Below, in pieces: positions 13,481 to 63,986 of a stretch of 64,000 bases of DNA (position 1 is the stretch's first letter; each line of letters opens with the position of its first letter). The DNA is taken from assembly GCA_016180845.1 (NCBI GenBank), contig JACPAK010000001.1, forward strand, positions 673,707 through 737,706, written 5' to 3'. The position numbers and the translations under genes were made by a program. The notes beneath the pieces are model-generated. The model was not told the origin of the DNA, did not search any database, and saw nothing but the letters and a program-made list of their open reading frames with translations. The DNA is from Deltaproteobacteria bacterium. GTDB lineage: Bacteria; UBA10199; JACPAL01.

Positions 13481-14080
13481 TTGAAACTGATTGTTGCCAC
13501 ATTAAATCGGGGCAAATTCCGTGAGATCTCGGAGTTTCTTCGAGGGCTTCCTTTACAACTTATCCCGTTTTGGGAATTTCAACAGCTCGAACCGGTGATT
13601 GAAGATCAACCGACCTTTCAGGGGAATGCCTTGAAAAAGGCGCGGGCTGTCTTTGGAGAAACTGGTTTGCCTACGTTGGCCGATGACAGCGGATTGGTCG
13701 TTGATGCCTTGGGAGGGAGACCGGGTGTTTTTTCAGCACGTTATGCAGGAGAGAAGGCATCAGACGCTGAAAATCTTTCCAAACTTCTTCGCGAGATGGA
13801 ATCTATTCAAGAAGGGGAGAGGTCAGCCCACTTTGTCTGTGCGATGGTCTTGAGGCTGACCGATGGTCGGGAATTTTTTGTTGAAGAAAGATGCGACGGT
13901 GAGATTGCAAGGAAACCTGGAGGGGTTGGAGGCTTCGGTTATGATCCGATCTTCTTTTTGCCGGAGTTTGGTAAGACAATGGCTGAAATCTCACCTGATC
14001 TTAAGAATCAGATCAGTCATCGTGGGAAGGCACTTCAAAAAATGAAAAAAATTCTCGTTAATCCTGAGGCGTCCAGCTAA
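13481..14080 (+). CDS. rdgB: Non-canonical purine NTP pyrophosphatase (Ham1/RdgB family)
   Basis: MKLIVATLNRGKFREI...TLADDSGLVVDALGGRPGVFSARYAG...FGYDPIF are the Ham1 family motifs. Confidence 0.88.
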   Translation: MKLIVATLNRGKFREISEFLRGLPLQLIPFWEFQQLEPVIEDQPTFQGNALKKARAVFGETGLPTLADDSGLVVDALGGRPGVFSARYAGEKASDAENLSKLLREMESIQEGERSAHFVCAMVLRLTDGREFFVEERCDGEIARKPGGVGGFGYDPIFFLPEFGKTMAEISPDLKNQISHRGKALQKMKKILVNPEASS

Positions 14081-15533
14081 CGGACGAGTTGGTCATTGTG
14101 TTCCCTGAGGGGTCTTTTACGTTTTGAATCGTGATGGTGTATTGTTGCGGCGCCGAAAGGTTCCCTCGGACATTCCAGGTTTGACTTCCACCGGATCTAG
14201 CTGCATTCCCACAAATCGTCGGCCAATCAAGCCCCCACTCAAACACGGTACCGCTGCAGCTGGGGTCTTTAGGGGTGGTACAGCCAGCCTCTCCTTCCAC
14301 ACAGCAATAGGAGAACGATCCAGAACCCTCTGGCGAAGCGGCAGGGGTGTAGGTGGCATTCGCGGTGGTACACTGATCGGAATTAATCGTTTCACTAAAG
14401 CAAATGTAAATTGGTTGGCAGATTGATTGATTGAGGTCCCCATTTGCCGGTACAGCTTTACTGACAGTTGGTGCGGTTGTGTCAGCCGCAGCAGCTGTCG
14501 TGAAACTGGTGCTGGCGGAGCCGGAGAGGTCATTTCCCGCCGTATCTTTCTGGCCTGAGAAGGTGCAGGTGTAAGTGGTACTTGCTGACAGAGAGCCGCT
14601 GATCGCGCAGGAACAACTATTCGAGCTGTAGGTGCAGGAGGATAACGTGATGGAAGGGGAGCAGGATGCATTGGATGTGGAGCATAGACCCGAGTTCATC
14701 GTTTCACTGAAATTGGCTTTGATCGAGGAGAGATTTGTTGCCACTCCGGTAGCGTTATTAGCCGGTTCGAACGATGAGACCGTGGGGCTTGTCGTATCGG
14801 CCGTCGATCCTGTTGTAAAAGTAACGCTAGGATTCCCTCCGGAAACCGAATTGCCGGCGGCATCGGTCTGACTCGAAAGGGTACAAGTATAGCTTGTATC
14901 ACTGGTAAGGGAGGAGCTTAAGGTGCAGGTACAGCTATTGTTATCACTATTATAGCTACAGGAAGCAAAGGTGAGTGTAGGACTGCATGAGATATTCGAG
15001 GGGGCACATCGAGTTCCATCCATTGCCTCACTAAAGGTGAATGTAAGAGTCGCAAGATTGGTACTCACCCCTGTGGCCCCGTTCGAGGGTTCTGAAGAAC
15101 TGACTGTGGGACTCGTCGCATCCAGGGCATTGCTGACGTTAAATGTGACAACGACTGTCCTGGGATTGTCTGAGGCGTCTGTGATATTCCAGGTCAGGGT
15201 ACAACTGGCCCCCAGAGGGAGGTCTTGCTGGAGCGCTGCAGAGAGTACTCGAGTCAAACTGTCGAAGCTCAAATTTCCGAGCGAAATCGATGTTCCTGCA
15301 CAGACAAGCGTCACGCTGCTTTCAGAGACGTTTACTTCTTCATCGACGGTAATCGAAGCGCGGTTGATGTTAGGGGCGACAGTGGCGTCATCTACAGGGT
15401 TTTGTGCCGTGATAGCGGGGGGGGATGAATCTCCGGTGAGGCCCGCAATATCTATCTGTGCTGAACAGGCAACAAGAAAAACAAGACTACTACCGAACAA
15501 AACAGAAAAAGCTCTCATTCGTCGAGGCACCAC
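14058..15533 (-). CDS. Secreted Ser/Thr-rich cell-surface protein with three tandem Ig-like (SbsA-type) domains
   Basis: It has a signal peptide (MVPRRMRAFSVLFGSSLVFLVACSAQ). A block of about 100 aa repeats three times (TSPTVSS.EP.N.ATGV.TNL...FSE.M...C...SCSP..T..SC.Y.S...C.C..S.SL...T.YTCT.S...D.AGN). It is very Ser/Thr-rich. The antisense ORFs 14117..14671 and 14971..15561 are shadows of it. Confidence 0.7.
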   Translation of the reverse strand: MVPRRMRAFSVLFGSSLVFLVACSAQIDIAGLTGDSSPPAITAQNPVDDATVAPNINRASITVDEEVNVSESSVTLVCAGTSISLGNLSFDSLTRVLSAALQQDLPLGASCTLTWNITDASDNPRTVVVTFNVSNALDATSPTVSSSEPSNGATGVSTNLATLTFTFSEAMDGTRCAPSNISCSPTLTFASCSYNSDNNSCTCTLSSSLTSDTSYTCTLSSQTDAAGNSVSGGNPSVTFTTGSTADTTSPTVSSFEPANNATGVATNLSSIKANFSETMNSGLCSTSNASCSPSITLSSCTYSSNSCSCAISGSLSASTTYTCTFSGQKDTAGNDLSGSASTSFTTAAAADTTAPTVSKAVPANGDLNQSICQPIYICFSETINSDQCTTANATYTPAASPEGSGSFSYCCVEGEAGCTTPKDPSCSGTVFEWGLDWPTICGNAARSGGSQTWNVRGNLSAPQQYTITIQNVKDPSGNTMTNSSVSWTPQD

Positions 15534-15629
15534 TCTTTCTATCCTATCAGAGGCTTTTTAATTTATAAAGCGCCCATTTTTTGTTGCTTGTGTTTGAAAT
15601 CGTTGCTAACGTTATGATATTCCAAGAAG

Positions 15630-17597
15630 ATGTCACCAACTTTAAAAGCCGGTCGACGCCTCATTTCCCTTCTCGTCTTTATCTTTGTATTGCTGGCCCC
15701 GATCTTTTCTTATGCCACAGCGACACGGTTTAGTGTCTTTCGTGCCTACCCGAGCGCCCTTCATAACGATTTTCAATTTATCTATGGCTCCCAAGGGCTT
15801 TTTCACCTGGAGTGGGAGGCAGGAACGCAATTGGATATTGCCTACCGTCCGATGGAGGGGTCGACGCGGACGATTATAGACACCGTTTTTACAGAGCATT
15901 TTTTTGCCGGGATCGGTCTCTTCGATTGGTTTTCTCTGGGGGCCGATCTCCCTATCGCCTGGTTTAATCGGTTTCAGCAACCGTCAGGGACAGGGGGATT
16001 CGAGAATGCGCTTGATATGGGAGATCTGAGGATCGATTTAAAATTCGAGATCCTTTCCCCCTATCGTTATCCGGTTGGGATCGCTGTTGTCCCTTTTATT
16101 CATTTGCCGACGGGCAATGCGCAAAACTTCGTTGGTGATGAATCGATTCTGGGTGGTGGTATCCTTGCCCTCGATGTCGAGTTCGCCCGTCGTTTCGTTC
16201 TTGGTCTTAATACGGGGGTAGAAGTTGGGGAAGATATTAATGTCAGCAATATTCAGATCAGCAAGGCGAGGCTTCTTTTGGGTCTTGGAGCAGCGGTGAA
16301 ATTTACTCCTAAGCTTGATTTTACTCTGGAGGGAATCGCCAAGGGGCCATTGGACCGGTTGTTTGAGGAGGTGGCTGAAAATCCTGTTGAACTGCTGGGC
16401 GGACTTCGTTGGAAGGCGGAAAATGGACTCAGTCTCTCGGGGGGATTCGGAGCGGGGCTTGTTTATGGGGCCGGCGCTCCGCGAATCCGGGGGCTTTTAA
16501 AGGCCAGCTATGCAGGGTCTACAGAGGCTCATAAGAGAAAACGTCAAAAGATGATGGAGCAAAAATACGGTCTTCCGGAGCAGCCGGCTGTTGAATGGGC
16601 TGTCTTTGAGTTGAAGGGGAAATGCCCTGAAAAGCCAGAGGACTTTAATCCAGAAATTCACGATCCAAGTTGTCCAAAATATTATGAGTTAAGTCAGATT
16701 GCGTCTTTGAGTCTCTCTTGCCCAAGTCAGGAAGAGGATTTTGATCCGGAGAAACATGACCCTGCCTGTCCCAAGGTGTACGAACTCCGGAAAGATCTCT
16801 CAAAAGAGGAATATGCAACTGTCTACGTTTTGGCGGCATCAGACCTTGCCAATCGATGTCCTGAAGACCCATCGCAATTCAATCCCGAGATCCATGATCA
16901 GGACTGCCCGAAGTTTTTTGAGTTACGAGAAACGGTTTCGTTGGTCTCTCGGTGCCCTGCTACCGAGGAGGATTTCAATCCAGAAATCCACGATGCTGGT
17001 TGCCCGAAGGTTTATTCGTTGAGTCAGGACTATGAGAAAAGTGATATTCAGGCGATTTATTTGTTGGCGGATGCCGATTCCGATCGTGACGGTATTCGGG
17101 ATCTAGAAGATCGTTGTCCTCAATCCATTGGCGTTGCCGCCTTCTTTGGTTGCCCTGAGGTCAAGATAGAATTTAAGGAGGGTCAGATTATCGGGACAGA
17201 GATTCCGATCACATTTGCCTTCGGAAGATCAGAACTGAGTGGGGAGATGGCGAGGGCCTTCAATGAAGTCGCCGAACTTCTCTTGAATCACCCTGAGATT
17301 CGGAAGGTTCGTATCGAGGGGCATGCCGATAGCGTCGGAACGGATGCAATGAACCGCTATATTTCGAAGAGGCGTGCCGACCTTGTGAAGGATTATCTCG
17401 TCTCTTGTGGGGTGGAATCAGAGAGAATCCATACAGTGGGGATGGGTGAAGAAAAACCGGTTGCACCGAATACCACTGCCGAAGGACGTGCGCAAAACCG
17501 CCGGGCGACACTCCTTGTCATCGAGCTTATTCAACAGATGCCGGCTAACGTACCTGTGCCAAGCGAGGTTTCGACACCTCCGTCACCGGTCCAGTAG
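15630..17597 (+). CDS. OmpA-family outer-membrane/peptidoglycan-associated protein with four internal CP-x3-EDFNPEIHD-x2-CPK repeats and one TSP3-like motif
   Basis: It has a signal peptide, a beta-rich N-terminal domain and a C-terminal OmpA-like domain (RIEGHADSVGTDAMNRYISKRRADLVKDYL). The repeats lie at 16620..17025. Confidence 0.8.
   Translation: MSPTLKAGRRLISLLVFIFVLLAPIFSYATATRFSVFRAYPSALHNDFQFIYGSQGLFHLEWEAGTQLDIAYRPMEGSTRTIIDTVFTEHFFAGIGLFDWFSLGADLPIAWFNRFQQPSGTGGFENALDMGDLRIDLKFEILSPYRYPVGIAVVPFIHLPTGNAQNFVGDESILGGGILALDVEFARRFVLGLNTGVEVGEDINVSNIQISKARLLLGLGAAVKFTPKLDFTLEGIAKGPLDRLFEEVAENPVELLGGLRWKAENGLSLSGGFGAGLVYGAGAPRIRGLLKASYAGSTEAHKRKRQKMMEQKYGLPEQPAVEWAVFELKGKCPEKPEDFNPEIHDPSCPKYYELSQIASLSLSCPSQEEDFDPEKHDPACPKVYELRKDLSKEEYATVYVLAASDLANRCPEDPSQFNPEIHDQDCPKFFELRETVSLVSRCPATEEDFNPEIHDAGCPKVYSLSQDYEKSDIQAIYLLADADSDRDGIRDLEDRCPQSIGVAAFFGCPEVKIEFKEGQIIGTEIPITFAFGRSELSGEMARAFNEVAELLLNHPEIRKVRIEGHADSVGTDAMNRYISKRRADLVKDYLVSCGVESERIHTVGMGEEKPVAPNTTAEGRAQNRRATLLVIELIQQMPANVPVPSEVSTPPSPVQ
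16620..17025 (+). repeat. Four tandem ~40-aa coding repeats (CPEKPEDFNPEIHDPSCPKYYEL and relatives) in the OmpA-family gene
   Basis: Read directly in the translation: CPEKPEDFNPEIHD..CPK, CPSQEEDFDPEKHD..CPK, CPEDPSQFNPEIHD..CPK and CPATEEDFNPEIHD..CPK. Confidence 0.8.
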
Positions 17598-25493: not shown

Positions 25494-27083
25494 TCAAAAC
25501 GAGGTCCTAAAATAGGGGGTCTCGAAGATCTCTTCGAGGAGTGCAAAGATTCGATCACGGAGGTCTGGGTGTTCTTCGGCGGCGTCAATTAATTTATGTG
25601 AGGCCTTGCTCATCGCCTCAACAGTGACAATAGAAATACCCTTTCTTGCTAGTAATTGGGTTTCTGAAACTAGGATTTCCGTTTCAGTCGGAAGGTCGAG
25701 GCCACCCTGAATAGACAATAACCGACGAGCCTCTTCGCTTAAGGTGAAGCGACCACCCGGGAGGATCGGGACATGATGGTAGCCACCAGGACCGCTATGC
25801 CAGGCCTTTGTAATAACGACCAGTTTACGATATTCCTCAAGGGCCCTTGGATTATTAATACGATAGGTTCCTTGCTCGACCATTCCGGTAATCGCTCCCT
25901 TGCTGAAGGTCAGGAAGTGTTCAAATCGCCCTGCATCGAGTTCAATGGTCCATCCTTCAAAACTAACAGTCACTCTTCGGAGGAGCAGATCACCGCTCCA
26001 ATCAACCTCATCCAAACTTCGTAAAGCTGTGGCGTCTTGGAGAAGTCGGTCGGGGGCTCTTTCACCGACGCCCACGACAATCCTCCCCTCTGGTCTCGGT
26101 CCGAGGGCGCCGGCAAACGTTCCCCCATCAGCTCCGACGTCTGGCACGACGACCCTCGCGGCTCCTCCAGGGGCTGCCCGAACTGTTGGTGCCCTCCCAA
26201 TAATCAATCGTCCATCCGTTGAATCTACATGGACGGTAACACTCGGTTCCTGAGCTGCTGCTGTGCGAGCGAGGCGAACGGTTGCCTCGTCAGGGACGGA
26301 GGCCCTTGCGGGACCTCTGCTACGAAGTAACGCCCCATCTGAAACCCACGGTGGCTCACGAGCACCCACTGCCGTTCCGTGATCAACAATCTCTTCTACC
26401 GCAGGGCGTAGGCCTCGAATCCTACTCCACCTGAGTAGTCCAAGCGTTACCAGGAGGAGCGCACCGACAACGATCGCGTGGTTATCCACGAAGAAATTTC
26501 CGACGAGTTGCGACCAACTTGGGGGTTCTGAATAAACGGGCGTTGCTTCGGCAGAAACGGCGCCAGCGGCTCGGGACGCATCGACCTCCGTGATAGATCC
26601 GCCATCATTCCCGATACCACCGTCTGGGGCATTCACTCCACCATCCGGAACGGAGCTTCCCTCTTCAACGAGGTGACATTTTTGATACAGACCGGAGAGG
26701 GTCAGCGCAAATCTTCGGAGATTTCTGGAATCCCCTGAAGCCCACCTCCCATCCCAAGGGATCCCATCAACATACCCCTCTTTTTCCTTGATGAAGCGCC
26801 TGAATTTGTGACCTGAAAATCTCCCATCCAGTGAACCATCGCGTTTATCAATCGCTACGAGGAGGCCATAGTATTTCGTGAGTGTGCTACCGGATAGAAA
26901 CTGTTCTAACGGGTGTTGGTCGATTGAGGTCTCTGACGGGGCATAGGTGATCGGGTCGTCACTGTCTGGGATCTCGGTGGCGATTCTTAGGTTATACCGA
27001 GGATCTTGCCGTCGTTTGTCATCGATCTCGAAAAGGTCGAGGGTTGGGTCGATGAAATCAGGGAGTTGGCAGATGATACCCAT
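25494..27083 (-). CDS. Hypothetical single-pass membrane protein (529 aa) with a cytoplasmic N-domain and an extracytoplasmic C-domain. Fourth gene of the uncharacterised operon.
   Basis: There is a single strong transmembrane helix (AIVVGALLLVTLGLL) near residue 200. No known motifs are present. Confidence 0.6.
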   Translation of the reverse strand: MGIICQLPDFIDPTLDLFEIDDKRRQDPRYNLRIATEIPDSDDPITYAPSETSIDQHPLEQFLSGSTLTKYYGLLVAIDKRDGSLDGRFSGHKFRRFIKEKEGYVDGIPWDGRWASGDSRNLRRFALTLSGLYQKCHLVEEGSSVPDGGVNAPDGGIGNDGGSITEVDASRAAGAVSAEATPVYSEPPSWSQLVGNFFVDNHAIVVGALLLVTLGLLRWSRIRGLRPAVEEIVDHGTAVGAREPPWVSDGALLRSRGPARASVPDEATVRLARTAAAQEPSVTVHVDSTDGRLIIGRAPTVRAAPGGAARVVVPDVGADGGTFAGALGPRPEGRIVVGVGERAPDRLLQDATALRSLDEVDWSGDLLLRRVTVSFEGWTIELDAGRFEHFLTFSKGAITGMVEQGTYRINNPRALEEYRKLVVITKAWHSGPGGYHHVPILPGGRFTLSEEARRLLSIQGGLDLPTETEILVSETQLLARKGISIVTVEAMSKASHKLIDAAEEHPDLRDRIFALLEEIFETPYFRTSF

Positions 27084-27090
27084 AGTTTCA

Positions 27091-28321
27091 TCACCATCGC
27101 TTAGGCTCGGGTCCCACCCTTCCTGTGTGAACTTCGATAAAAGGGCCTGTGGTGATCCCTTCTCCCTCAGGCAGATCAGGAAATTCCCATTCTACGGTGG
27201 TTTCACCGGTATGGTAGACCGCCTCTCCCGGATCGTTTTTTGCCTCCTCCGCCAGCTTTGAGACCTGGCCATGGAGGATCTCTAATTTCAGGACGGCATA
27301 CCTTAAGGCATCAGCATCGATATCTTTAATCGCCTTTTCGAATTCCTTCTCCGTCTCCAGAGCTATCCGACGTCTCTCTTGCATTTTGACAAGCAGTGAC
27401 CGGACATTCACGAATTTAATAACGTCTTGTTCTCGACGTGCCTTCGGGATCAGTGCGGCGACTTCGAGAACCCAATCGGTGATCTGTTTCAAAAGCTTCC
27501 GACCCTGCGCGACCTTCGCATCGTAATTGATGACGGTGACGACTGTCCTGTTCGAGAGGTTCGCGATCATTTTTTCGATCGCCTCATGGTTGGAGAGGCC
27601 TGGGGTCCTCAAGAATTCACGATAATAAAGGACCGCCCCCCCGATATTTCCCTGGAGTCGAAGGCACTCGGCGATCTTGAAGATGAAAATAGGGTCATTG
27701 TAGATAGAGTGACCGTCGGAGAATTTGGTGAGGGCACGATCATAGTGGCCCTCACGGAGGAGCCTTTCTCCCTCGGCAAGGCTCTCCCGTTCTCCCTGCG
27801 TACAACTCCCCATGATACATTGGGGGATCTCAACACGTTTCGGCATCATTCTAGAGCGGACCTCTTCGATCTTTGTCCTGAGGAAATCCGGTTCGGCACT
27901 GACTTGGGTATCCATGGCTGCATGGGTCAGGATCTCTACGAGAGAAAAATTGGCTGCCTCGACTGGGGGAAGGAGTGTAGAAGATTTCGCTGCCCCTAAC
28001 ACCCGATCCCATTCGTCTGCTGAGACTTGTTTATCTCCCATCAAGGCGAGGCGTGCCTCATTAACGAACTGGGTCTTCCCAACGATGATTTGACTCAGGC
28101 CTTTATCGGTCAGTTCGGTGAATCGCTGAACCACTTCGCGATCATAGGTCCTCGTAAGATCCTGACATCCTTCTTCGAGGACCGCTGTGAGTTCGGGAAA
28201 GCCTTTTGCCTCATCCTCTCTGAGCGCCTCCTCCATCCCTTGGAGCTCTGTGAGGGATACATTTTGATCGTCCTGAAGGGCCTGTTGAAATTTTTGGCGG
28301 ATGTCGGTCATTAGGTTTTTC
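27091..28321 (-). CDS. Hypothetical protein with a TPR-like helical region. Third gene of the operon.
   Basis: An ORF with a TPR-like segment (GHYDRALTKFSDGHSIYNDPIFIFKIAECLRLQGNIGGAVLYYREFL). The start at ATG 28321 lies 10 nt after the upstream stop. The alternative start at 28386 would overlap the upstream gene by 56 nt. Confidence 0.55.
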
Positions 28322-28330
28322 TCAATAAGG

Positions 28331-31300
28331 TTATCGTTTCCAGAAAAGCTTGACTTGTTGGGGGGCAGTACTTCCAGAGGGTTCAAATCGCCATTGTCTG
28401 ATCATACTATAAATTCTCTCCTCCACGATCTGGCGCCCATTGGAGATACCCCCGATTGAGGTCACAATGATTTTACCGATAGTGCCATCAGCATTGACCA
28501 AAAAGGCGACATCGACACGGCTTGGCGTGCCATCTGCCTCATAACTGTTTATTGCCACCCCAAAGGCATCTTTAACTTTTCCAAGGGACTTATCCGTCGC
28601 CTGATACCAATTCGCCCTCTCTTGAGGGTTCTTCACATCATAGGTAGGGGGCGAGGCCCATTCATCAACAACAGGTGCTCGTGGGGCAGCGGCCGCCGCG
28701 GCTGCGGCATTCACGGTCACCGTCGCCAAGACGCGTCCCTTGTAAATTATCTGGATCACGTTAGGACCCTGCTGGTTTGGTTTCGCGACGAATCGATGTT
28801 CTTTCGATGCGGCCCGTGTGAGACCACCGGCGAAATAGCCGGCGTTATTGTCAATCACCCCACCGACCGAGACCTGAGCGGTCAGAACCGCATCATTATT
28901 GGTTCGGATCAGAATTTCAGTCGTTTTCCCGACCTGTCCTTCGACTGTTGTGCCACTGGCTGGTTCAATCAATTTCACGACCTTTGATTCAAGTTCGGGT
29001 AATTTAGTATCAATCGTTGCGACCCGACCCTTTGCCTCCGCATGATCCGGCTGTTCGGCAAGCACGGCGACAAAATGCTCACGTGCCTTGGTCAGGTAAC
29101 CCAACTGGTCTTCGGGTGAGACGTTCATTTGGGCAGCGATCTCATAGTATCGGAATTGGGTCTGGCCATCAGCGAGGTGTTTTTTGGTGGCTGCCGAGAG
29201 TTCTCGAGGGGTTGCAGAATCTTCTGCCGCTGACTCACCTCCAGAAATGACTGCAGCAGCGGCCCTTCGGGCTGCCTCTTCAGCCGCCAGAATTTGGGCT
29301 AAAGCGGCCTCGATTTGTGTAAGTCTCGCCTCAACCGTTTCAGTTGAAGCGTCTTCGACAGAGTGTTTCCTCTTCTCAGCCGGGATTTTTTCGTAGGCTG
29401 CCTTTGCATCCGTCAACCCTCTCTTTTGGATACCAACATCTTGAGCATTTTGTTGAGCAGTTGTGTAGTTGTCCCAACCTGCCTTGCCGCGTCTTAAGTT
29501 TAATCTCTCGTCTGCAGTCAGCTCGATGACCGGTGCAGGCGGGGCGTCTGGTGCATTAAAATCAACCATCGCCTCAGCAGCTGGGGCTTCTGCCCGCAGC
29601 GCATCTAATTTCTTAGTAACTTCTGTCTTCAACTGTCCCGCTTCCGCGTGATCAGCTTGAATTCCCAGGACGGCATTGAGTTTCGCAAGTGCTTCGGTGT
29701 AACGCGCGATCTTGTCATCTTTCTTCGTCCCCCTTCTCTCGGCGGCACTGATCTTGTCTTGTGCCTGTCCCATGAGAGTCCTAATCTGCCGAGCCTTCTC
29801 CCTTGCCTCCGCCTCAGCAGCCGCCTTCGCTGCCGCCTCGGCCCGTGCCTGGGCCTTCGCCTCTTCATCGGCTTTGATCGCCGCCTCTGTCTCTGAGATC
29901 CCGGTTGTTGCCTGTCCCTTCAGTTCAGCGACATTTTCAATATCAGGGAGTGGAGCGAGAAGCCTCTGTGCCTCCTGATATTTTCCAAGCCTGGTCTGAA
30001 GATTCGTTGTTGCTGCCGCTCGACTGAGGAGTCCAAGGGCTCGGTCCCTCTGGGTCGCATCAGCTTTCGAGAGTTTGGGGGGTTCTTCAGCCTGTCTGGC
30101 CGCCGCCTCAGCCTGTGCTCTCGCTTCAGCTTCAGCGCGTGCTTGGGCCTCGGCCTGCGCTCTTGCTTCAGCCTCAGCTTTGGCCCGAGTCTCTCCCTCT
30201 GCCTTTGCCCTCGCTTCAGCCTCGGCCCTGGCAGTAGCCTCTGTGTCAGTGGGAACTGGTGCCGGTGCAGCTTTTACCTCAGGTGCCGGCACTGGAGCTG
30301 GAGCAGGAGGTGGTTCTACTGGGATTGGTGCTGGCACTGGAGCTGGAGCAGGAGGTGGTTCCACTGGGACTGGCGCTGGCATTGGAGCTGGAGCAGGAGG
30401 TGGTTCTACTGGGACTGGCGCTGGCGGCGGTGTCGCTGCCGGTTTCTCTGGGAAGAGTGGCTTGCCGAGCATAATTTCAGAAGTATTTGGGAAGCTAAAT
30501 GTGACTTGGGTGTGTTTCCTTTCGGGGTGTCTCTTCCAGGCGGGAGATTGTGCTTCTTTGGCCGTTTCTGTTTTACCCAATCCTTTTAGTTCAAAGTTCT
30601 CATCGGCTAGGCCTGTGTCATTGAAATCCTTAAAACCAGACTGCAGATCAGCCTGAGCAAGCCTTGTCCTTTCCTTTGAGACCTGTTGGTTCACTTTATC
30701 CGAGCCGAGGATGTCCGTATGGCTCTCGATCGTGATATGCCCTGGCGCCTGTGTGATCTGTCCGTTACCAAGGAGATTGCCAAGCCATCTTAGAAATTGA
30801 TGTGTCTTCTCATCCAGTGCATCCGGTTTTGTTTTGGCATTCGGATGAACGATATCAATGGCAAAAATTCTTTGATCAAAACTGTTATATGTCACAACGA
30901 CCTTCAGTCGCCATTTATGCATCGCTGCCTGAGGAATAAGGTTAACAAACCCCTCCCATTGCTCTCTCTGATCAGCATCTTTAAGGGCCTTTAGTTGAAG
31001 GGCCAGGAGGTTAGCGAGGGCTGTATCGTTTCCATTAGCGATCGCTTCCTTGACCTGTCTGTCGATCTCAGTCTTGGAAAGGGTGACGCTAATCTTGTTT
31101 TTGGAGAGCGATTTTCCTGACGGATCGAGTATTTCAAGTTCAAAGTTTGTGTTCCCAGAAGTGGTATCCTGAAAAACATAGACAATGTCACCAGCAGCCG
31201 ATGGTTCTAATTGGAGGGATTGCATTTGGGTTTTTTTGTTCGGATCTGTCGCATCGACTTGGTAGAGATTCACGGTGAAGCGCTCACCGGCTTGAGACCG

Positions 31301-32068
31301 GACCTTGATCGGGATCTCAAGCCGTTGACCGGTTTCCACGGTGAATGATTCTTTATCACGTGGGGAGATCAGGCGTGATTGAGCCTCGATTTTATAAGTC
31401 GCCAGGACCTCATTGTTTGGTCCTTTGAGAATGACTTCACCGTCTCCGACAAAATCAGGTGTGAAGGAGATCTTGGCCAGATTGTTGGCATCTGTTGACC
31501 GGCCTGCCACGAGTTGTTTTGTGGTCCCTCCCTGTTTCAAATCGACGGAGAAGGTTGCTTTCTTGCTCAGGAGAGCGCTGATCTCGGTCGGGATACCATT
31601 AACCACCAATGTTTTAGGTGAAATCGGGCTCAAGATCCGCACTGGCAGGATCTCGCTTTTGACAAAATCTCCGAGGACATTCTCAAAGGTTTGTCTGCCC
31701 AAGTTTGGTTGAAGGAAATCATTGGCATAACTCCAAAGACCTGGAGTGGAGATAGCGTCGCCTCTTTTGATCAGAGCTTGTGCCGAGCGATCAGCGTCGA
31801 AGGTACCATCTGCCTTGTAATAAAGGTCATGAACCACCGCGATCGAGCCGTTGGCTTCATTGAGGACAGATTGCCCCTGGCGATCGGTGTCATTATCCGC
31901 CTTGACCTTGATCTGGACATGCGTGTCTCCACTGGCGTCTGATTCGATGGAGACCCCCAACTGATGGATATCGACATTTTGTGAGTCCTCTGTCTGGTCC
32001 CAATAGAGATCGATCAGTAATTCTACTAGCTGATCTCTTTGGGCTTCTCTTAAGGGTATATTAGCCAT
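28331..32068 (-). CDS. Giant (1245 aa) Pro/Ala-repeat protein with an internal OmpA-like peptidoglycan-binding motif and a TonB-C-like C-terminal domain. Second gene of the operon.
   Basis: The internal motif ITIESHTDILGSDKVNQQVSKERTRLAQADL resembles the OmpA_C core. The (PAPVPVEPPPAPAPV)x3 spacer is proline-rich like TonB. The C-terminus (VDVAFLVNADGTIGKIIVTSIGGISNGRQIVEERIYSMIRQWRFEP) resembles the TonB C-terminal domain. EAEARAKAEA coiled-coil-like repeats are also present. Confidence 0.65.
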   Translation of the reverse strand: MANIPLREAQRDQLVELLIDLYWDQTEDSQNVDIHQLGVSIESDASGDTHVQIKVKADNDTDRQGQSVLNEANGSIAVVHDLYYKADGTFDADRSAQALIKRGDAISTPGLWSYANDFLQPNLGRQTFENVLGDFVKSEILPVRILSPISPKTLVVNGIPTEISALLSKKATFSVDLKQGGTTKQLVAGRSTDANNLAKISFTPDFVGDGEVILKGPNNEVLATYKIEAQSRLISPRDKESFTVETGQRLEIPIKVRSQAGERFTVNLYQVDATDPNKKTQMQSLQLEPSAAGDIVYVFQDTTSGNTNFELEILDPSGKSLSKNKISVTLSKTEIDRQVKEAIANGNDTALANLLALQLKALKDADQREQWEGFVNLIPQAAMHKWRLKVVVTYNSFDQRIFAIDIVHPNAKTKPDALDEKTHQFLRWLGNLLGNGQITQAPGHITIESHTDILGSDKVNQQVSKERTRLAQADLQSGFKDFNDTGLADENFELKGLGKTETAKEAQSPAWKRHPERKHTQVTFSFPNTSEIMLGKPLFPEKPAATPPPAPVPVEPPPAPAPMPAPVPVEPPPAPAPVPAPIPVEPPPAPAPVPAPEVKAAPAPVPTDTEATARAEAEARAKAEGETRAKAEAEARAQAEAQARAEAEARAQAEAAARQAEEPPKLSKADATQRDRALGLLSRAAATTNLQTRLGKYQEAQRLLAPLPDIENVAELKGQATTGISETEAAIKADEEAKAQARAEAAAKAAAEAEAREKARQIRTLMGQAQDKISAAERRGTKKDDKIARYTEALAKLNAVLGIQADHAEAGQLKTEVTKKLDALRAEAPAAEAMVDFNAPDAPPAPVIELTADERLNLRRGKAGWDNYTTAQQNAQDVGIQKRGLTDAKAAYEKIPAEKRKHSVEDASTETVEARLTQIEAALAQILAAEEAARRAAAAVISGGESAAEDSATPRELSAATKKHLADGQTQFRYYEIAAQMNVSPEDQLGYLTKAREHFVAVLAEQPDHAEAKGRVATIDTKLPELESKVVKLIEPASGTTVEGQVGKTTEILIRTNNDAVLTAQVSVGGVIDNNAGYFAGGLTRAASKEHRFVAKPNQQGPNVIQIIYKGRVLATVTVNAAAAAAAAPRAPVVDEWASPPTYDVKNPQERANWYQATDKSLGKVKDAFGVAINSYEADGTPSRVDVAFLVNADGTIGKIIVTSIGGISNGRQIVEERIYSMIRQWRFEPSGSTAPQQVKLFWKR
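30291..30425. repeat. Three 45-bp tandem repeats encoding (PAPVPVEPPPAPAPV)3
   Basis: Near-identical 45-nt units (ACTGGAGCTGGAGCAGGAGGTGGTTCTACTGGGATTGGTGCTGGC), directly visible. The adjacent 30075..30240 holds degenerate GCCTCAGCC-type repeats encoding the EAEARA tracts. Confidence 0.8.
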
Positions 32069-32071
32069 TAT

Positions 32072-32995
32072 TTATTTTCCCAGAAATCGGACTCGTCTCC
32101 GTCCCTCGTTCTGTTTGTCTCCTCCAAAGACGTAGAGGAGGTTAACGCCACCGCCATTTAAGTAGGCCTTTTGGATATCCCCGTCACCCAAGACAGGGAT
32201 AAAAACCTCGGCGCCTCGGATCCATGGGATTACCGACAAACGTCCGTAGGTCGCACCGATGCTGGCATCGGCAGCCAGGTGCACACCAAAATCGGTCTCA
32301 GCGTCATGGGTCGTTTGTAAATCATCAATCACAATCGGATCTAATTCATCGGCATTTGCAGAATCTTCAGGGGGTGGTGTGGGATTCTGACATCGGGGGT
32401 GGTTTGAGGTACCACTGCAGAGTTGCTGCGGCGCTTCATTTTCAAATTTAACTTCTGCTGTTCCGTTGGTTGCCGATCTGTGGTAGGCGGCAAGTCCTAC
32501 TCTCGCAGTGACATCGGCATGGAGGTGAAACTGACCCTTGCGTGCAAAATTCCTTCGACCCCGAAAGATCATATCAACAATTGTTGCCCAGTCATTTCCA
32601 TTCGGCCCTGTTTCCGAACCCTCGAGATATGTGAGGTCATCGACATCGGTGGTGACCCCTTGACGCATCAGGTCCTCTCGAACAACAGCAGGATTACTGA
32701 GCATAATCGGACGGGCAGTCTCTTCAGCAAGTTCGGATCTCCTGGAGGGGATTTCAGCGGGATTATCTGAAAATTGACGCCAGTAGGCACCAAAACCGAT
32801 ACTTCCCTCCCACCGATCCCTGGATTCTGCAGGGGGAAGATCTCGTGTCTCCAAGGGATACCATTCACCACCGACCTGAGTGGAGTCTTGGTGAGCCTCT
32901 CCTGCCTTCCCAAGAACATCGTCGCCGAAGCGAGCGACGCTTATACCAATCTCATGCTGATCAGTTCTGGCCTTTTTGACGTCGCCTCCTGCCAT
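32072..32995 (-). CDS. Hypothetical protein (307 aa). First gene of the operon. Its stop is 3 nt before the start of the giant gene.
   Basis: An ORF with no signal peptide and no recognisable motifs. It is beta-rich and Gly/Asp-rich. Confidence 0.55.
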   Translation of the reverse strand: MAGGDVKKARTDQHEIGISVARFGDDVLGKAGEAHQDSTQVGGEWYPLETRDLPPAESRDRWEGSIGFGAYWRQFSDNPAEIPSRRSELAEETARPIMLSNPAVVREDLMRQGVTTDVDDLTYLEGSETGPNGNDWATIVDMIFRGRRNFARKGQFHLHADVTARVGLAAYHRSATNGTAEVKFENEAPQQLCSGTSNHPRCQNPTPPPEDSANADELDPIVIDDLQTTHDAETDFGVHLAADASIGATYGRLSVIPWIRGAEVFIPVLGDGDIQKAYLNGGGVNLLYVFGGDKQNEGRRRVRFLGK

Positions 32996-33083
32996 TTAGA
33001 AACCCTCCAAAGTATTAAGAAGACCATTGGTAAAAATAAAAAAACAAAATCACGTCTATAAACATTATCGGTACCTGAGGTTG

Positions 33084-33101
33084 AAAGTTGCTAGCAACTT
33101 T
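33084..33101. promoter_or_regulatory. 18-bp perfect palindrome AAAGTTGCTAGCAACTTT in the divergent intergenic region. Candidate operator.
   Basis: A perfect inverted repeat lying between the start of the 32995 operon and the start of the TSP3 gene at 33126. Confidence 0.5.
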
Positions 33102-33125
33102 TCTTGTCTGGCGCCGAAACCAGTC

Positions 33126-35768
33126 ATGAGGCTTATTGTGAGATATCTCTCTAAAACCCTTTTATTCTTGCTCCTGGCGACAGGGGCAGTCCTTATAACA
33201 GCGTCTGGGGCGGAGGCCTCCTGTGAGGATTTTGAGACCGATGACCAGCTGACCTGTGAGGATCACTGTACCGTTTGGAGAACGGGAATGTGGTACAATG
33301 ACGGGTCCCTTCAGAACCGTTTGGCCCTGATGTCTGGTCGCTATTGTCACTGCTGGATCTGGTTTGCCAATCAGATGGATGGTATCACCCAAGACTCCAC
33401 CTGGACGTTTGCCTCAGGGCGGTGTTCGGACGGATATGGGGTGATCCTGACAGGCGCCAATTTTGAGGATGAGGTTGGAGAGGAGGCAGGTCAGCTCGGG
33501 ATCGAGATCGATGCTAGAAGGGTCACTTTTGGGAACAATTGTGCGTACAAAATGAATTTGGATGACCAGCATGCGATCCAGGATTTAACGATCGTTGTCT
33601 CTCCGGGGAAGAGAAGCAAGGCGCTTTGCGATCTTCAGGGGAGAGATATCTATGTTCGCAACGTAACAACACGACTCTGTTCGAGTGGTAACACCCGTGC
33701 CTGTGAATTTGAGGGGACGACAGTTGTGGAACGTGAGGGGTGTCCTTCAAACTCGAACGATCTGGATGGGGATTGTTGGGAGAATGATCTCGATAATTGC
33801 CCAAGTGTCTATAATTTTGATCAAGCAAATAGTGATGGAGATTTATTGGGGAATGTTTGCGATGGGGCCGGTGGGTCTTTGGCGAATGATGCCGATAATG
33901 ATACCGTTCCGGATGGAGAGGATCTCTGCCCGACGATCCCGGCACGCCCAGGCGAAGAGGATGAGCATCGTTGTGAGATTGCCTATAACTGCAGTGGGTT
34001 TGGTTTTTTTCGTATCTGTATTCCAAGCGGGTGTCAGGTCGCAGTTAACTCAGATGCAGATAGCTATCCCGATCGTTGTGACCCGGATGATGATAATGAC
34101 GGGGTTTGTGATGGGGATGAGGCGGTTAACTATGGGGTAGGGGCCCGATGTGTCGAAGGTGAGGATGGGCGTGACAATTGCCCTCTCGATGCAAACGGAA
34201 GTAACAAGAACGAAGACAATCAGTCTGATGATGATGACGATGGGATGGGGGATGCCTGTGATCCGTTTCCTGAAGATCCCTTGAACGACTGGGATGGAGA
34301 TGGTCGTGGAGCCGATTCTGATAACTGTCCTTTCAATGACAATGACGGTTGGGTCGATGCGGATGGAGATGGTTCCGGGGATGCCTGCGATAGTTTTACC
34401 GATTCAGACCACGATGGGGTGGAGGATTCCGATGACGAGTGTTCTGATACAGACACGGGAACAACTGTTTTAGGAAATGGTTGTCCTGATGCCGATGGGG
34501 ATTCTATCCCGGATAATCGGGATACCTGTGAATCAACTCCAGCGGGGACCCTTGTCGATCTGAATGGCTGTGCTGCCTCTCAGCCCGAAACCGATTCTGA
34601 TGGGGATACAATCCCCGATGGTAGAGATACCTGTCCTGAGACACCAGCGGGCACTTTGGTGACAGCGACGGGGTGTGTTGTCGAAGAGATTGATGCGGAT
34701 GGAGACGATGTCCCTGATTTAATCGATCAATGTCCAGGGACGGTAGACGTTACTGTTGTTGGCTATAATGGCTGTGAAGATACGGATCAGGATTCGGTTC
34801 CGGACAATCTTGATTCTTGCTTGGGGTCTCCTGCCGGAGCGGTGGTCGCTGTGAATGGTTGTACGTTAGAGGGGGATTCCGATGGAGATGGGATTTTAGA
34901 CGGGGCGGATCTTTGCCCTGCGATTCGAAGTACTCAAGTTGATATTGATAATGATAGTGAAGGCGACGAGTGTGATTCAGATGCCGATGGCGATGAACGG
35001 ATCAATGAAGAGGATAATTGTCGACTCATTGCCAATCTCGATCAGGCAGATACCGATCAGGATGGGGTTGGCGATCTCTGTGAAGGCTCAGCATTCACGA
35101 CCGATACCGATGGCGATGGAATTCTCGATATCTTCGATTGTGCCCCAATGAATCGCGAGCTTTTTACCCTCCCGGCCTGTTATGGAGATGCCGATGGGGA
35201 TGGATCACCCGATCCTCAGGAAAGGGAACGGGGGACAGATCCGAAGAAGTCGGATACCGATGGTGATGGAGTTTTGGATCTGATTGATTGTGGTCCTAAT
35301 GATGCCTCGGTAGGCCTCATGGGGACGTGTGGTGGGGAGACGAGGGTGAATGTGGATCCCGACGGGGATGGGAAGGGGCTCGATGACAATTGCCCCTTTG
35401 CAGTGAATGGCGATCAGAATGATACCGATGGCGATGGTATTGGGGATCTCTGCGATCCGACACCGAATGTTTCTTCGACTCAAGATGCCGATGGTGATGG
35501 GTTGATCGATGATGAGGATAATTGCCCCTTGGTTCCAAATCCGAATCAGACCGACAGTAATGGGGACAAGACGGGGGATCGATGCCAGGGGGATCGCGAC
35601 GGGGATGGCATCGGCGATGCTGAGGATATTTGCCCAAGCCACTTCAATATGGATCAGGCTGACGAAGATGGGGATGGTAAGGGGAATCCGTGCGATGAGG
35701 ATTTTAATCCAGCCTTAAGCATTCGTGCCGGTGGTGGGGGGTGCGCGTTGATTCCGTCCCGGGATTAA
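33126..35768 (+). CDS. Giant secreted calcium-binding protein with many thrombospondin type-3-like repeats (DxDxDGxxDxxD)
   Basis: It has a signal peptide (MRLIVRYLSKTLLFLLLATGAVLITASGAEA). There are dozens of Asp-rich Ca-binding loops (DSDGDGILDGADLCP, DTDGDGIGDLCD, DADGDGLIDDEDNCP). The listed ORF 33027 adds an unlikely leader. Confidence 0.8.
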   Translation: MRLIVRYLSKTLLFLLLATGAVLITASGAEASCEDFETDDQLTCEDHCTVWRTGMWYNDGSLQNRLALMSGRYCHCWIWFANQMDGITQDSTWTFASGRCSDGYGVILTGANFEDEVGEEAGQLGIEIDARRVTFGNNCAYKMNLDDQHAIQDLTIVVSPGKRSKALCDLQGRDIYVRNVTTRLCSSGNTRACEFEGTTVVEREGCPSNSNDLDGDCWENDLDNCPSVYNFDQANSDGDLLGNVCDGAGGSLANDADNDTVPDGEDLCPTIPARPGEEDEHRCEIAYNCSGFGFFRICIPSGCQVAVNSDADSYPDRCDPDDDNDGVCDGDEAVNYGVGARCVEGEDGRDNCPLDANGSNKNEDNQSDDDDDGMGDACDPFPEDPLNDWDGDGRGADSDNCPFNDNDGWVDADGDGSGDACDSFTDSDHDGVEDSDDECSDTDTGTTVLGNGCPDADGDSIPDNRDTCESTPAGTLVDLNGCAASQPETDSDGDTIPDGRDTCPETPAGTLVTATGCVVEEIDADGDDVPDLIDQCPGTVDVTVVGYNGCEDTDQDSVPDNLDSCLGSPAGAVVAVNGCTLEGDSDGDGILDGADLCPAIRSTQVDIDNDSEGDECDSDADGDERINEEDNCRLIANLDQADTDQDGVGDLCEGSAFTTDTDGDGILDIFDCAPMNRELFTLPACYGDADGDGSPDPQERERGTDPKKSDTDGDGVLDLIDCGPNDASVGLMGTCGGETRVNVDPDGDGKGLDDNCPFAVNGDQNDTDGDGIGDLCDPTPNVSSTQDADGDGLIDDEDNCPLVPNPNQTDSNGDKTGDRCQGDRDGDGIGDAEDICPSHFNMDQADEDGDGKGNPCDEDFNPALSIRAGGGGCALIPSRD

Positions 35769-63432: not shown

Positions 63433-63434
63433 CA

Positions 63435-63986
63435 GGAAATCACTTTCTTGTTGAGCCGCTCTTTCAGATGAAGGAGAGAATAGGCCATCAGCAAAAGAAA
63501 GACCCAGTGAATTGGGGTCATATACCGTCCTTCCATTCGAATTGGAATAAGGACTAGCATGAAATAGAGTGGAAGGCTTCCAAGTAATAACCCATATCGC
63601 CTGTTGGTTCGCCACATAAGAAGAAGACCATAAATTGCGAAGACAAGAATGACAAGGTCCAAACACTTAGTCAGGAGGAAGCCAGGATTTTCACGGAGCA
63701 TAAAGAGCGCATATTGAATGAGACTCATATCTCTACCTGTCTTCAGATGAAACGTGTGATACTCAAGATTTTTCTTTTGAAAGATTCCCCAGTGGACTCG
63801 ATTAACAATGAGCGCCCGAGGAATTCGTCGAAAAATAGTTCCAAGATACCACCAGGGATGTTTCTGGAGCGCCTCGACGACCTTTGGTTTGAGAAAATCC
63901 TCGTATTCTATCGAGGCAAACTCCCCCTGATATCCGGCGGCTCTCATCTGCTTTTCCGTCAACGCGTCATGATTGATTGCCCCCAT
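63435..63986 (-). CDS. Hypothetical membrane-anchored protein. Possibly N-terminally truncated by the window edge.
   Basis: An ORF with a C-terminal transmembrane helix. The reading frame is open to the right edge. Confidence 0.45.

What the first reader, a model, noticed from the sequence alone, without database searches (positions are those of the whole stretch)
25494..33126. Uncharacterised four-gene envelope operon built around a 1245-aa TonB-C/OmpA-like Pro/Ala-repeat protein
Four tightly packed minus-strand genes have gaps of 3 to 10 nt, or overlap. None of them has an assignable function. The giant central protein combines an OmpA-like peptidoglycan-binding core, a TonB-like proline-rich spacer built from perfect 45-bp DNA repeats, alanine/glutamate coiled-coil-like repeats and a TonB C-terminal-like domain. 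Its partners are a TPR-like protein, a single-pass membrane protein and a 307-aa beta-rich protein. This looks like an envelope-spanning or periplasm-bridging machine that is not in the usual catalogues (it is not Tol-Pal and not ExbBD-TonB). It is divergently coupled to a giant Ca-binding TSP3 protein.
Basis: partly seen in the sequence, partly recalled or inferred. Interest (0 to 1): 0.8.

Follow-up and report, generated by a model that had tools for sequence, protein, structure and literature searches.

The report
Orphan operon: signal-less OmpA/TonB-like giant
Four tightly packed genes of an uncultured groundwater bacterium encode proteins seen in only one other organism; the 1245-residue central protein joins a cell-wall-binding (OmpA-like) domain to a TonB-type end domain through a very long spacer, yet has no export signal, so it is probably an unusual cell-envelope strut, which remains unproven.

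Summary
Four minus-strand ORFs (g307, g1245, g431, g529) are coding throughout and separated by 3, 19 and 7 nt. None reaches a curated family cut-off as a whole protein.

The family is extremely rare. There is one homologue among 1.84 billion cluster representatives, on a 4.8-kb contig that keeps the order g307-g1245-g431.

The "envelope-spanning machine" reading is only partly supported:
- g307, g1245 and g431 have no signal peptide or membrane segment, whereas other envelope proteins in the window do.
- There is no TonB-type membrane helix and no ExbBD/TolQR motor gene among the window ORFs scanned.
- The homologue lacks the peptidoglycan-binding Arg.
- The partners' folds stay unknown.

Best guess (0.4): a passive, motor-less envelope tether with a fast-evolving half (g307 plus the N-half) and a conserved half (spacer, TonB_C, g431). 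It is a new variant of a known kind. Interest is moderate.

The parts
32072..32995 (-). g307 (HYT76_03670), 307 aa. No signal peptide or TM. Two Cys conserved in the motif LCxxxSxHPRCQNP. Fold unknown. Belongs to the fast-evolving module (47-50% identity to the homologue).
28331..32068 (-). g1245 (HYT76_03665), 1245 aa. Modular giant protein with no Cys, no signal peptide and no TM.
31649..32068 (-). g1245 aa 1-140: acidic alpha/beta N-terminal domain (motifs DLYWD, NVDI, DNDT, VVH). No family match.
31079..31648 (-). g1245 aa 141-330: two Ig-like beta-sandwiches. The most divergent part (19.5% identity to the homologue, dN 1.18).
30479..31078 (-). g1245 aa 331-530: three helices followed by an OmpA-like / MotB-C-like domain (motif SHTDILGSDKVNQQVSKERTRL).
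30269..30463 (-). g1245 aa 536-600: Pro-rich (PAPVPVEPPPAPA) spacer encoded by three 45-bp tandem units at 30282-30425, 91-93% identical. Absent from the homologue.
30080..30268 (-). g1245 aa 601-663: Ala/Glu/Arg-rich octad-like repeats (TolA domain-II-like composition).
   Evidence: (tolA_full E 0.0012, compositional)
28997..30079 (-). g1245 aa 664-1024: conserved helical region with TPR-like hairpins (motif ...PDHAEA...). 70.6% identity to the homologue.
28709..28996 (-). g1245 aa 1025-1120: conserved region, beta-rich by eye (probably Ig-like). Not modelled and no family match.
28334..28663 (-). g1245 aa 1136-1245: TonB_C domain (...RVDVAFLVNADGTIGKIIV...WRFEP...).
   Evidence: The homologue's domain gives Pfam TonB_C 27.4 bits, E 4.8e-6, above the 24.6 cut-off; the window domain gives 18.5 bits. 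The PDB profile search returns only TonB C-domains. NCBIfam hits to tonB_Cterm and the AgmX/PglI tail are weak.
27091..28311 (-). g431 (HYT76_03660), 406 aa from ATG 28311. No signal peptide or TM. Weak TPR at aa ~178-235. The N-terminal 108 aa are 74% identical to the homologue.
25494..27083 (-). g529 (HYT76_03655), 529 aa. One hydrophobic segment, an R/A/G/P-rich region at aa ~220-340, and a C-terminal region of unknown fold. No homologue found.
26430..26498 (-). g529 aa 196-218: predicted membrane helix (FFVDNHAIVVGALLLVTLGLLRW). The positive charges that follow it (RWSRIRGLR) predict an N-out/C-in orientation.
   Evidence: sequence read directly
32996..33125 (.). 130-bp AT-rich divergent intergenic region between g307 and the TSP3 gene. 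GGAGGG ribosome-binding site 9 nt upstream of the g307 ATG.
   Evidence: the promoter scan shows no excess over shuffles
33126..35768 (+). Neighbour, membership untested: 880-aa secreted TSP3-repeat (Ca-binding) protein with a signal peptide. Ends GGGGCALIPSRD.

Best explanation
This is a lineage-restricted chromosomal operon, g307-g1245-g431-g529, with translationally coupled spacing. It most likely builds a passive, motor-less cell-envelope tether or strut.

Shown:
- g1245 contains a MotB-C/OmpA-like domain and a C-terminal TonB_C domain.
- About 600 residues of extended or helical spacer separate them: a Pro-rich stretch, an A/E-rich TolA-II-like stretch, helical hairpins and a probable Ig-like region.
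- An N-terminal alpha/beta domain and two Ig-like sandwiches precede the OmpA-like domain.

Inferred:
- The OmpA-like module docks non-covalently on peptidoglycan.
- The TonB_C module docks by beta-strand augmentation on a partner. That partner could be an outer-membrane protein, or possibly the N-terminal strand of g307.
- The spacer sets the distance between the two.
- g529 gives a membrane anchor and g431 (helical, weakly TPR-like) acts as an adaptor.

The operon is split into two evolutionary modules. The constant module is the spacer, TonB_C and g431 (70-76% identity, dN 0.15-0.19). The variable module is g307 plus the N-half of g1245 (19-50% identity, dN 0.47-1.2). This suggests one end meets conserved cell machinery and the other meets something that changes fast. 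How the three signal-less proteins would leave the cytoplasm is unknown.
For: Domain identity:
- TonB_C: only TonB chains hit; 27.4 bits in the homologue, above the Pfam cut-off.
- Spacer.

Operon structure: gaps of 3, 19 and 7 nt with ribosome-binding sites. All frames are coding.

Synteny: g307-g1245-g431 order is kept in the one relative, L003.

Two-module divergence.

Genomic setting is cell-surface biology. A secreted TSP3 protein sits next door and a ~27-kb glycan-biosynthesis locus follows.

g307 keeps a Cys pair in a conserved motif, which is compatible with a disulphide outside the cytoplasm.

Published precedent exists for fused multi-domain OM-PG tethers (PorE) and for new TonB/TolA-like architectures (PMC12204202).
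Against: - g307, g1245, g431 and the homologue P0003 have no signal peptide or TM segment, while four exported proteins in the same window do.
- Of the OmpA-type peptidoglycan-contact residues (the Asp/Arg pair is recalled from the literature), the Arg is W in the homologue.
- None of the window ORFs scanned with Pfam matched an ExbB/ExbD/TolQ/TolR/MotA family. Not every ORF under 150 aa was scanned.
- The folds and roles of g307, g431 and g529 are unknown.
- The N-half model has only pLDDT 64.
- The C-half was not modelled.
- Co-conservation rests on one short contig.
Confidence: 0.4

Rival explanations
1. Polymorphic cell-surface recognition or adhesion module. g307 plus the N-terminal half of g1245 (alpha/beta domain and Ig-like pair) would be exposed on the cell surface and diversify under phage, predator or kin-recognition pressure. 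The conserved C-half would anchor them. The cluster would work together with the neighbouring TSP3 adhesin-like protein and the glycan locus. Export would be by a non-Sec route.
For: The variable module diverges 3-7 times faster than the constant module, with the boundary at the repeat linker. Ig-like tandem folds resemble adhesins and biofilm proteins. g1245 has no Cys. The cluster sits next to a secreted TSP3 protein and an O-antigen/EPS-type locus.
Against: No secretion-system genes were found among the window ORFs scanned. There is no signal peptide. Three samples carry 100% identical sequence, so no within-population diversity is visible. dS is saturated, so selection cannot be told apart from module replacement. 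The homologue P0003 has three Cys.
Confidence: 0.2
2. Cytoplasmic or inner-membrane-associated scaffold. The OmpA-like and TonB_C folds would be re-used for protein-protein contacts and the proteins would never leave the cytoplasm. g529 would tether the complex to the inner face of the membrane.
For: Three of the four proteins and the homologue lack an export signal. The peptidoglycan-contact Arg is lost in the homologue. Charges flanking the g529 helix put its 310-aa C-terminal part in the cytoplasm.
Against: Both domain families are, by established knowledge, almost exclusively periplasmic. Ig-like tandems and Pro-rich TonB-like spacers are typical of extracytoplasmic proteins. g307 has a conserved Cys pair.
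Confidence: 0.15
3. A true TonB/TolA paralogue (PMF-driven force transducer) energised by ExbBD/TolQR genes elsewhere in the genome, with g529 supplying the membrane helix in trans.
For: TonB_C domain, Pro-rich spacer and TolA-II-like stretch. By eye, the g529 helix HAIVVGALLLVT resembles the H-x6-L-x3-S part of the TonB SHLS motif (the E. coli TonB sequence is recalled from memory).
Against: g1245 and P0003 have no membrane helix. The g529 helix has the opposite predicted orientation and lacks the first Ser. No motor family matched among the window ORFs scanned. The defining features listed in PMC12204202 are not met.
Confidence: 0.05
4. Component set of a Myxococcus-type Glt (gliding) or Nfs (spore-coat) trans-envelope complex.
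For: Weak hit of the C-terminus to the AgmX/PglI tail model (E 0.069). A TonB_C protein, a TPR-like protein and a possible beta-rich protein lie in one cluster. The neighbouring TSP3 protein resembles a myxobacterial protein (MtsC, sub-threshold).
Against: GltG has an FHA domain and a TM helix, and most Glt proteins carry signal peptides or TM helices (PMC3169522). None of that is present here. No sequence similarity to any Glt protein reached significance. No AglRQS-type motor matched among the window ORFs scanned.
Confidence: 0.05
5. Mobile-element or phage cargo, or a bacteriocin-like protein released by lysis, which would explain the missing signal peptides.
For: No signal peptides. Very narrow distribution. 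Ig-like domains are common in phage proteins.
Against: Nothing in the phage or plasmid collections for g307, g431 or g529, and nothing in IMG/VR for the g1245 C-half or g307 profiles. PHROGs gave only insignificant hits. The flanks are housekeeping and glycan genes. No integrase turned up among the ORFs scanned. The nearest tRNA gene is ~5 kb from the cluster.
Confidence: 0.03

Closest known systems
TonB / TolA periplasmic force transducers
   Same: C-terminal TonB_C-type domain (WRFEP motif). A Pro-rich rigid spacer like TonB's. An Ala/Glu/Lys-Arg-rich helical stretch like TolA domain II.
   Different: No N-terminal membrane helix with the SHLS motif. No adjacent ExbBD/TolQR genes found. About five times longer than TonB. 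Carries an OmpA-like domain, three Ig-like modules and an extra N-terminal domain. The Pro-rich block is missing in the only homologue.
OmpA-like peptidoglycan-binding domains (Pal, OmpA-C, RmpM, MotB-C/PomB-C, YfiB, TssL/TagL)
   Different: Placed in the middle of a signal-less giant protein instead of after a lipobox, a beta-barrel or a TM helix. Scores just under Pfam's cut-off. The homologue has W in place of the peptidoglycan-contact Arg.
PorE (Bacteroidota CpoB-TolB-Ig-Pal fusion lipoprotein; PMC12204202)
   Same: A single polypeptide combining TPR-like, Ig-like and OmpA-like modules, proposed as an OM-PG tether.
   Different: PorE is a lipoprotein with a signal peptide, has a TolB-like beta-propeller and has no TonB_C domain. 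No sequence relationship was detected.
GltG/GltJ (PglI/AgmX) and NfsG of Myxococcus
   Same: TonB_C-like C-terminal tail with a Pro-rich or helical linker. Encoded in clusters with TPR proteins and small beta-rich proteins.
   Different: GltG and GltJ are bitopic membrane proteins with cytoplasmic FHA or other domains, coupled to the AglRQS motor. None of these features is present here.
SlpA/OmpM-type OM-PG tethers (recalled from the literature, not tested here)
   Same: Same concept: a wall-binding domain joined to an outer-membrane element through a long rod.
   Different: Those use an SLH domain, a coiled coil and a fused beta-barrel, and they carry signal peptides.

Membership tests
TonB/TolA force transducers | N-terminal transmembrane helix with the SHLS (S-x3-H-x6-L-x3-S) motif | tested here: not met
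   No 19-aa window with Kyte-Doolittle above 1.5 anywhere in g1245 or P0003, and no N-terminal hydrophobic stretch. The feature definition is from PMC12204202.
TonB/TolA force transducers | Periplasm-spanning Pro-rich or helical linker | tested here: met
   aa 536-600 is a PAPVPVEPPP repeat and aa 601-663 is A/E-rich. The Pro-rich block is absent in P0003.
TonB/TolA force transducers | C-terminal TonB_C (PF03544) domain | tested here: met
   The P0003 domain scores 27.4 bits against a 24.6 cut-off. The window domain scores 18.5 bits and is 69% identical to it. The PDB profile search hits only TonB C-domains. The fold itself was not modelled.
TonB/TolA force transducers | Synteny with ExbB/ExbD or TolQ/TolR motor genes | tested here: not met
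   Most ORFs of at least 150 aa in the 64-kb window were scanned with Pfam (all but 63432-63986 among the non-nested ones), plus several smaller ones. None is MotA/ExbB/TolQ or ExbD/TolR. The rest of the genome was not available.
OmpA-like peptidoglycan-binding domain (PF00691) | Sequence match to the family profile | tested here: inconclusive
   25.9 bits (E 1.3e-5) for the window domain and 20.5 bits for P0003, against a 27.2 cut-off. Concordant YfiB, ZorB and RmpM hits. hhalign against the window's own OmpA protein gives E 8e-5.
OmpA-like peptidoglycan-binding domain (PF00691) | beta-alpha-beta-alpha-beta-beta fold | tested here: met
OmpA-like peptidoglycan-binding domain (PF00691) | Conserved Asp and Arg that contact the DAP moiety of peptidoglycan (residue roles recalled from the literature) | tested here: inconclusive
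   The window protein keeps both (HTD ... VSKER). P0003 keeps the Asp but has LSGAW, so Arg is replaced by Trp.
Tol-Pal system | tolQ-tolR-tolA-tolB-pal-cpoB gene set with a TolB beta-propeller and the Pal lipoprotein | tested here: not met
   No TolQ/R, TolB or lipobox protein in the cluster. The only tolA_full hit is compositional (E 0.0012, 18 bits against 59).
Glt/Nfs gliding or sporulation complex | GltG-type architecture (FHA - TM - linker - TonB_C), partners bearing signal peptides, AglRQS motor | tested here: not met
   No FHA, TM or signal peptide. The AgmX/PglI tail model gives E 0.069, 13 bits against 40. Definitions are from PMC3169522.
TPR proteins (for g431) | Tandem 34-residue TPR motifs above the family threshold | tested here: inconclusive
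   TPR_2 18.5 bits against 27 and TPR_16 14.8 bits against 32.7, about 1.5 repeats. Nothing in the PDB. Not modelled.
Outer-membrane beta-barrel (for g307) | Signal peptide, amphipathic beta-strands closing a barrel, C-terminal aromatic beta-signal | tested here: inconclusive
   No signal peptide. The protein ends ...LLYVFGGDKQNEGRRRVRFLGK rather than in an aromatic residue. The AF2 model is unusable at pLDDT 31.7. There are no family or PDB hits.

The most novel reading that the evidence does not exclude
A previously unknown kind of envelope tether. A signal-peptide-less giant protein reaches the periplasm or cell surface by a non-Sec route. It links peptidoglycan (through the OmpA-like domain) to an outer-layer partner (through TonB_C) without any PMF motor. 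It also carries an exchangeable, fast-evolving recognition cassette (g307 plus the N-half).
Probability: 0.15. Interest if true: 0.65.

Novelty: new variant of a known kind. Interest (0 to 1): 0.42.

Why it matters
If the tether reading is right, TonB_C and OmpA-like modules can be combined in one motor-independent protein that lacks both a Sec signal and a membrane anchor. That would add to the recently widened catalogue of outer-membrane/peptidoglycan tethering solutions (Pal, OmpA, Lpp, OmpM/SlpA, PorE). It would also raise a concrete export puzzle. The split into a conserved half and a hyper-divergent half gives a natural handle for asking which end faces the environment.

The practical weight is limited. 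The family has two known members, both from uncultured organisms, and three of the four proteins have no detectable relatives outside the source organism and that one contig.

Tried and rejected
Homologue searches:
- The word-indexed search of 5.8 billion proteins returned only the self hit for g1245, g307 and g529.
- The exhaustive HMMER search with g1245 aa 1-560 gave one true homologue, plus two unrelated proteins that matched only through repeated beta-rich domains.
- Two GTDB genome scans, two JGI metagenome scans and two IMG/VR scans with the conserved motifs found no relative.
- tblastn of g307, g431 and g529 against the plasmid and phage collections found nothing.
- The exact-sequence look-up of g1245 was not on record.

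Structure:
- AF2 of g307 as a single sequence failed (pLDDT 31.7). The beta-barrel question stays open.
- The afdb50 fold library was unavailable.
- Foldseek against the PDB and BFVD was dominated by generic Ig-like hits.

Other checks:
- PADLOC and PHROGs gave nothing significant, so a defence-system or phage reading was rejected.
- The promoter/terminator scan showed no excess over shuffles.
- Rfam and tRNA scans found nothing in or beside the cluster.
- Self-BLAST of g1245 found no significant internal protein repeats beyond the low-complexity linker.
- I considered stop-codon read-through between g307 and g1245, which share a frame in both organisms. I did not adopt it: each gene has its own ATG with a purine-rich stretch upstream, and the chance of the shared frame is 1 in 9.
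- I considered a hidden signal peptide upstream of g307. It is rejected because an in-frame TAA directly precedes the ATG and three independent assemblies agree.

Full report
**What is there**

The region holds four minus-strand ORFs:
- g307, 32072-32995.
- g1245, 28331-32068.
- g431, listed as 27091-28386 from a TTG start.
- g529, 25494-27083.

The only homologue of g431 starts at the residue that corresponds to M26. The NCBI model of the source genome (HYT76_03660, 406 aa) starts there too. The true start is therefore ATG 28311. The gene gaps are 3, 19 and 7 nt, each with a purine-rich stretch upstream.

A codon-usage log-odds score, trained on 15 Pfam-supported genes of the window, ranks the annotated frame first in every 50-codon window of all four genes. 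They are real coding sequences.

MoeB/ThiF-rhodanese follows after 41 nt that contain a TTGACA-17-TAGTCT motif (read by eye). It is probably a separate transcription unit.

Upstream, a 130-bp AT-rich spacer separates g307 from a divergent TSP3-repeat gene. That gene's real start is ATG 33126, followed by a textbook signal peptide.

**Source and distribution**

The proteins are HYT76_03655 to HYT76_03670 of an NCBI MAG labelled "Deltaproteobacteria bacterium". Logan assemblies of three runs (SRR12113385, SRR12113425, SRR12113431) carry 100% identical DNA. All of them break at 30083 and 30385, the two edges of the repeat linker. The repeat copy number therefore rests on the MAG assembly alone.

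The family is extremely rare:
- An exhaustive HMMER pass over 1.84 billion cluster representatives with g1245 aa 1-560 found one true homologue, P0003 (1205 aa, E 1.5e-55).
- P0003 lies on a 4.8-kb Logan contig, L003.
- Motif scans of GTDB genomes, JGI metagenomes and IMG/VR found no relative.
- tblastn of g307, g431 and g529 against the phage and plasmid collections found none either.

L003 keeps the order g307-like, g1245-like, g431-like. It ends before a fourth gene could appear.

**Domain anatomy of g1245**

As a whole protein it reaches no curated cut-off. Several independent lines of evidence still agree on the domains.

*OmpA-like domain*
- Weak hits at aa ~416-527 to Pfam OmpA, NCBIfam YfiB and PADLOC ZorB/MotB.
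- 25.9 bits, E 1.3e-5, when the domain is scanned alone; the cut-off is 27.2.
- A two-sequence profile hits mostly OmpA-like chains in the PDB (12 of 14), including RmpM, OprF, YfiB and Pal.
- hhalign against the window's own bona fide OmpA-family protein gives E 8e-5.

*Other N-half modules.* The same model shows an alpha/beta N-domain (aa 1-140), two Ig-like sandwiches (aa 145-330) and a helical segment (aa 332-385). Foldseek matches to these are generic Ig-tandem proteins.

*TonB_C domain*
- The window domain scores 18.5 bits.
- The 69%-identical domain of P0003 scores 27.4 bits, E 4.8e-6, above the 24.6 cut-off.
- The C-half profile hits only TonB C-domains in the PDB, with an alignment running through ...RV.V.F.V..DG.I..I.V...WRFEP.

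*Spacer*
- A Pro-rich block is encoded by three 45-bp units that are 91-93% identical, not perfect.
- An A/E/R-rich degenerate octad region follows. Its tolA_full hit is compositional.
- About 360 residues of conserved helical sequence with TPR-like "PDHAEA" hairpins come next.
- A conserved region of about 95 residues, beta-rich by eye, precedes TonB_C. It has no family match and was not modelled.

**The partners**

- g431 has only sub-threshold TPR hits.
- g529 has one hydrophobic segment at aa ~196-218. Its flanking charges predict N-out/C-in.
- g307 has no hit in any library. Its single-sequence AF2 model is unusable at pLDDT 31.7.
- g307 keeps two Cys in a conserved LCxxxSxHPRCQNP motif.

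**The main difficulty**

OmpA-like and TonB_C domains are periplasmic by all established knowledge. Yet g307, g1245, g431 and P0003 lack any signal peptide or membrane segment. Their maximum 10-residue hydropathy in the first 40 aa is 0.1-1.5.

Four exported proteins in the same window score 2.3-3.6 and have obvious signal peptides: the OmpA-family protein, the Big_5 protein with a lipobox-like LVAC motif, the BNR protein and the TSP3 protein. No upstream extension is possible for g307 or g1245.

g1245 also lacks the N-terminal SHLS helix that defines TonB and TolA (PMC12204202). None of the window ORFs scanned with Pfam matched an ExbB/ExbD/TolQ/TolR/MotA family. The scan covered all non-nested ORFs of at least 150 aa except 63432-63986, plus several smaller ones.

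The peptidoglycan-contact Arg is kept in the window protein but replaced by Trp in P0003.

**Two evolutionary modules**

| Region compared with L003 | Identity | dN |
|---|---|---|
| g1245 C-half domains and g431 N-terminus | 69-76% | 0.15-0.19 (dS ~1) |
| g307 | 50% | 0.47 |
| g1245 N-domain, helices, OmpA-like domain | 33-36% | ~0.66 |
| g1245 Ig-like pair | 19.5% | 1.18 |

The boundary falls at the repeat linker, which also differs in content: the homologue has no Pro-rich block. Synonymous sites are saturated, so diversifying selection and replacement by recombination cannot be told apart.

**Interpretation**

The best-supported reading (0.4) is a passive, motor-less envelope tether or strut. 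Peptidoglycan docking by the OmpA-like module, partner docking by TonB_C and distance-setting by the spacer are all inferred. So is the role of g529 as a membrane anchor and g431 as an adaptor.

The setting fits cell-surface biology: a secreted TSP3 protein next door and a ~27-kb glycan-biosynthesis locus beyond it.

Rivals:
- A polymorphic surface recognition or adhesion module (0.2). This is not mutually exclusive with the tether reading.
- A cytoplasmic scaffold that re-uses the folds (0.15).
- A true TonB/TolA paralogue (0.05).
- A Glt/Nfs-type complex (0.05). GltG needs an FHA domain and a TM helix, and its partners need signal peptides (PMC3169522).
- Phage or mobile-element cargo (0.03).

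**Verdict**

The cluster is a near-orphan. It is not a member of TonB/TolA, Tol-Pal or Glt, because defining features were tested and not met. It re-uses their modules in a new architecture.

"Envelope-spanning machine" remains a hypothesis, and the missing export signals weigh against it. Novelty: new variant of a known kind. Interest: moderate (0.42).

Noticed in passing
window 2-4192, minus strand: An open reading frame of at least 1397 aa runs off the left end of the window, so the ORF listing does not show it. It has no Pfam family. By eye there is an FHA-like stretch near the C-terminus (VLIGRDPSDG...IFLDSEGRLHIQDLS). It is a second giant uncharacterised protein in the window.
   Followed up: partly
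window 33126-35768, plus strand: The TSP3-repeat protein (880 aa, signal peptide, 13 TSP_3 repeats) has as its best NCBIfam hit the myxobacterial MYXO-CTERM cohesion protein MtsC (224 bits against a cut-off of 350). It ends in GGGGCALIPSRD. That Gly/Cys motif resembles invariant-Cys C-terminal sorting signals, but no membrane helix follows it.
   Followed up: partly
window 30084-30384: Contigs from three independent Logan assemblies of the same organism all stop at the two edges of the Pro-rich/A-E-rich repeat region. The number of 45-bp and 24-bp units in the MAG sequence is therefore not independently confirmed.
   Followed up: yes
window 32066-32074 and L003 836-853: The g307 stop codon and the g1245 start codon are in the same reading frame in both organisms (TAA ATA ATG here; TAA + 9 nt + ATG in L003). 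The chance of this is 1 in 9, and there is no evidence for read-through.
   Followed up: partly
window 26430-26498 (g529 aa 196-218): The membrane helix contains a His, and the pattern HAIVVGALLLVT is reminiscent of the H-x6-L-x3-S part of the TonB/TolA SHLS motif. The TonB sequence is recalled from memory. The flanking charges predict the opposite membrane orientation.
   Followed up: no
window 36554-63666, minus strand: One long co-directional glycan/polysaccharide locus. It includes a sugar-nucleotide enzyme set, Bac_transf, WecG, GT9, two Glyphos_transf, two radical-SAM enzymes, an FkbM methyltransferase, a Polysacc_synt flippase and a Wzy_C-like protein.
   Followed up: partly
window 14058-17597: A second, canonical OmpA-family protein (655 aa, OmpA 8e-23, signal peptide) lies next to a Big_5/CopC protein with a lipobox-like LVAC motif. 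Both served here as positive controls for signal peptides and for the OmpA comparison.
   Followed up: partly
window 4462-4941: A PIN-domain ORF (159 aa) lies next to a signal-peptide BNR_4 protein (4909-6648). It may be a toxin-antitoxin remnant. This was not examined.
   Followed up: no
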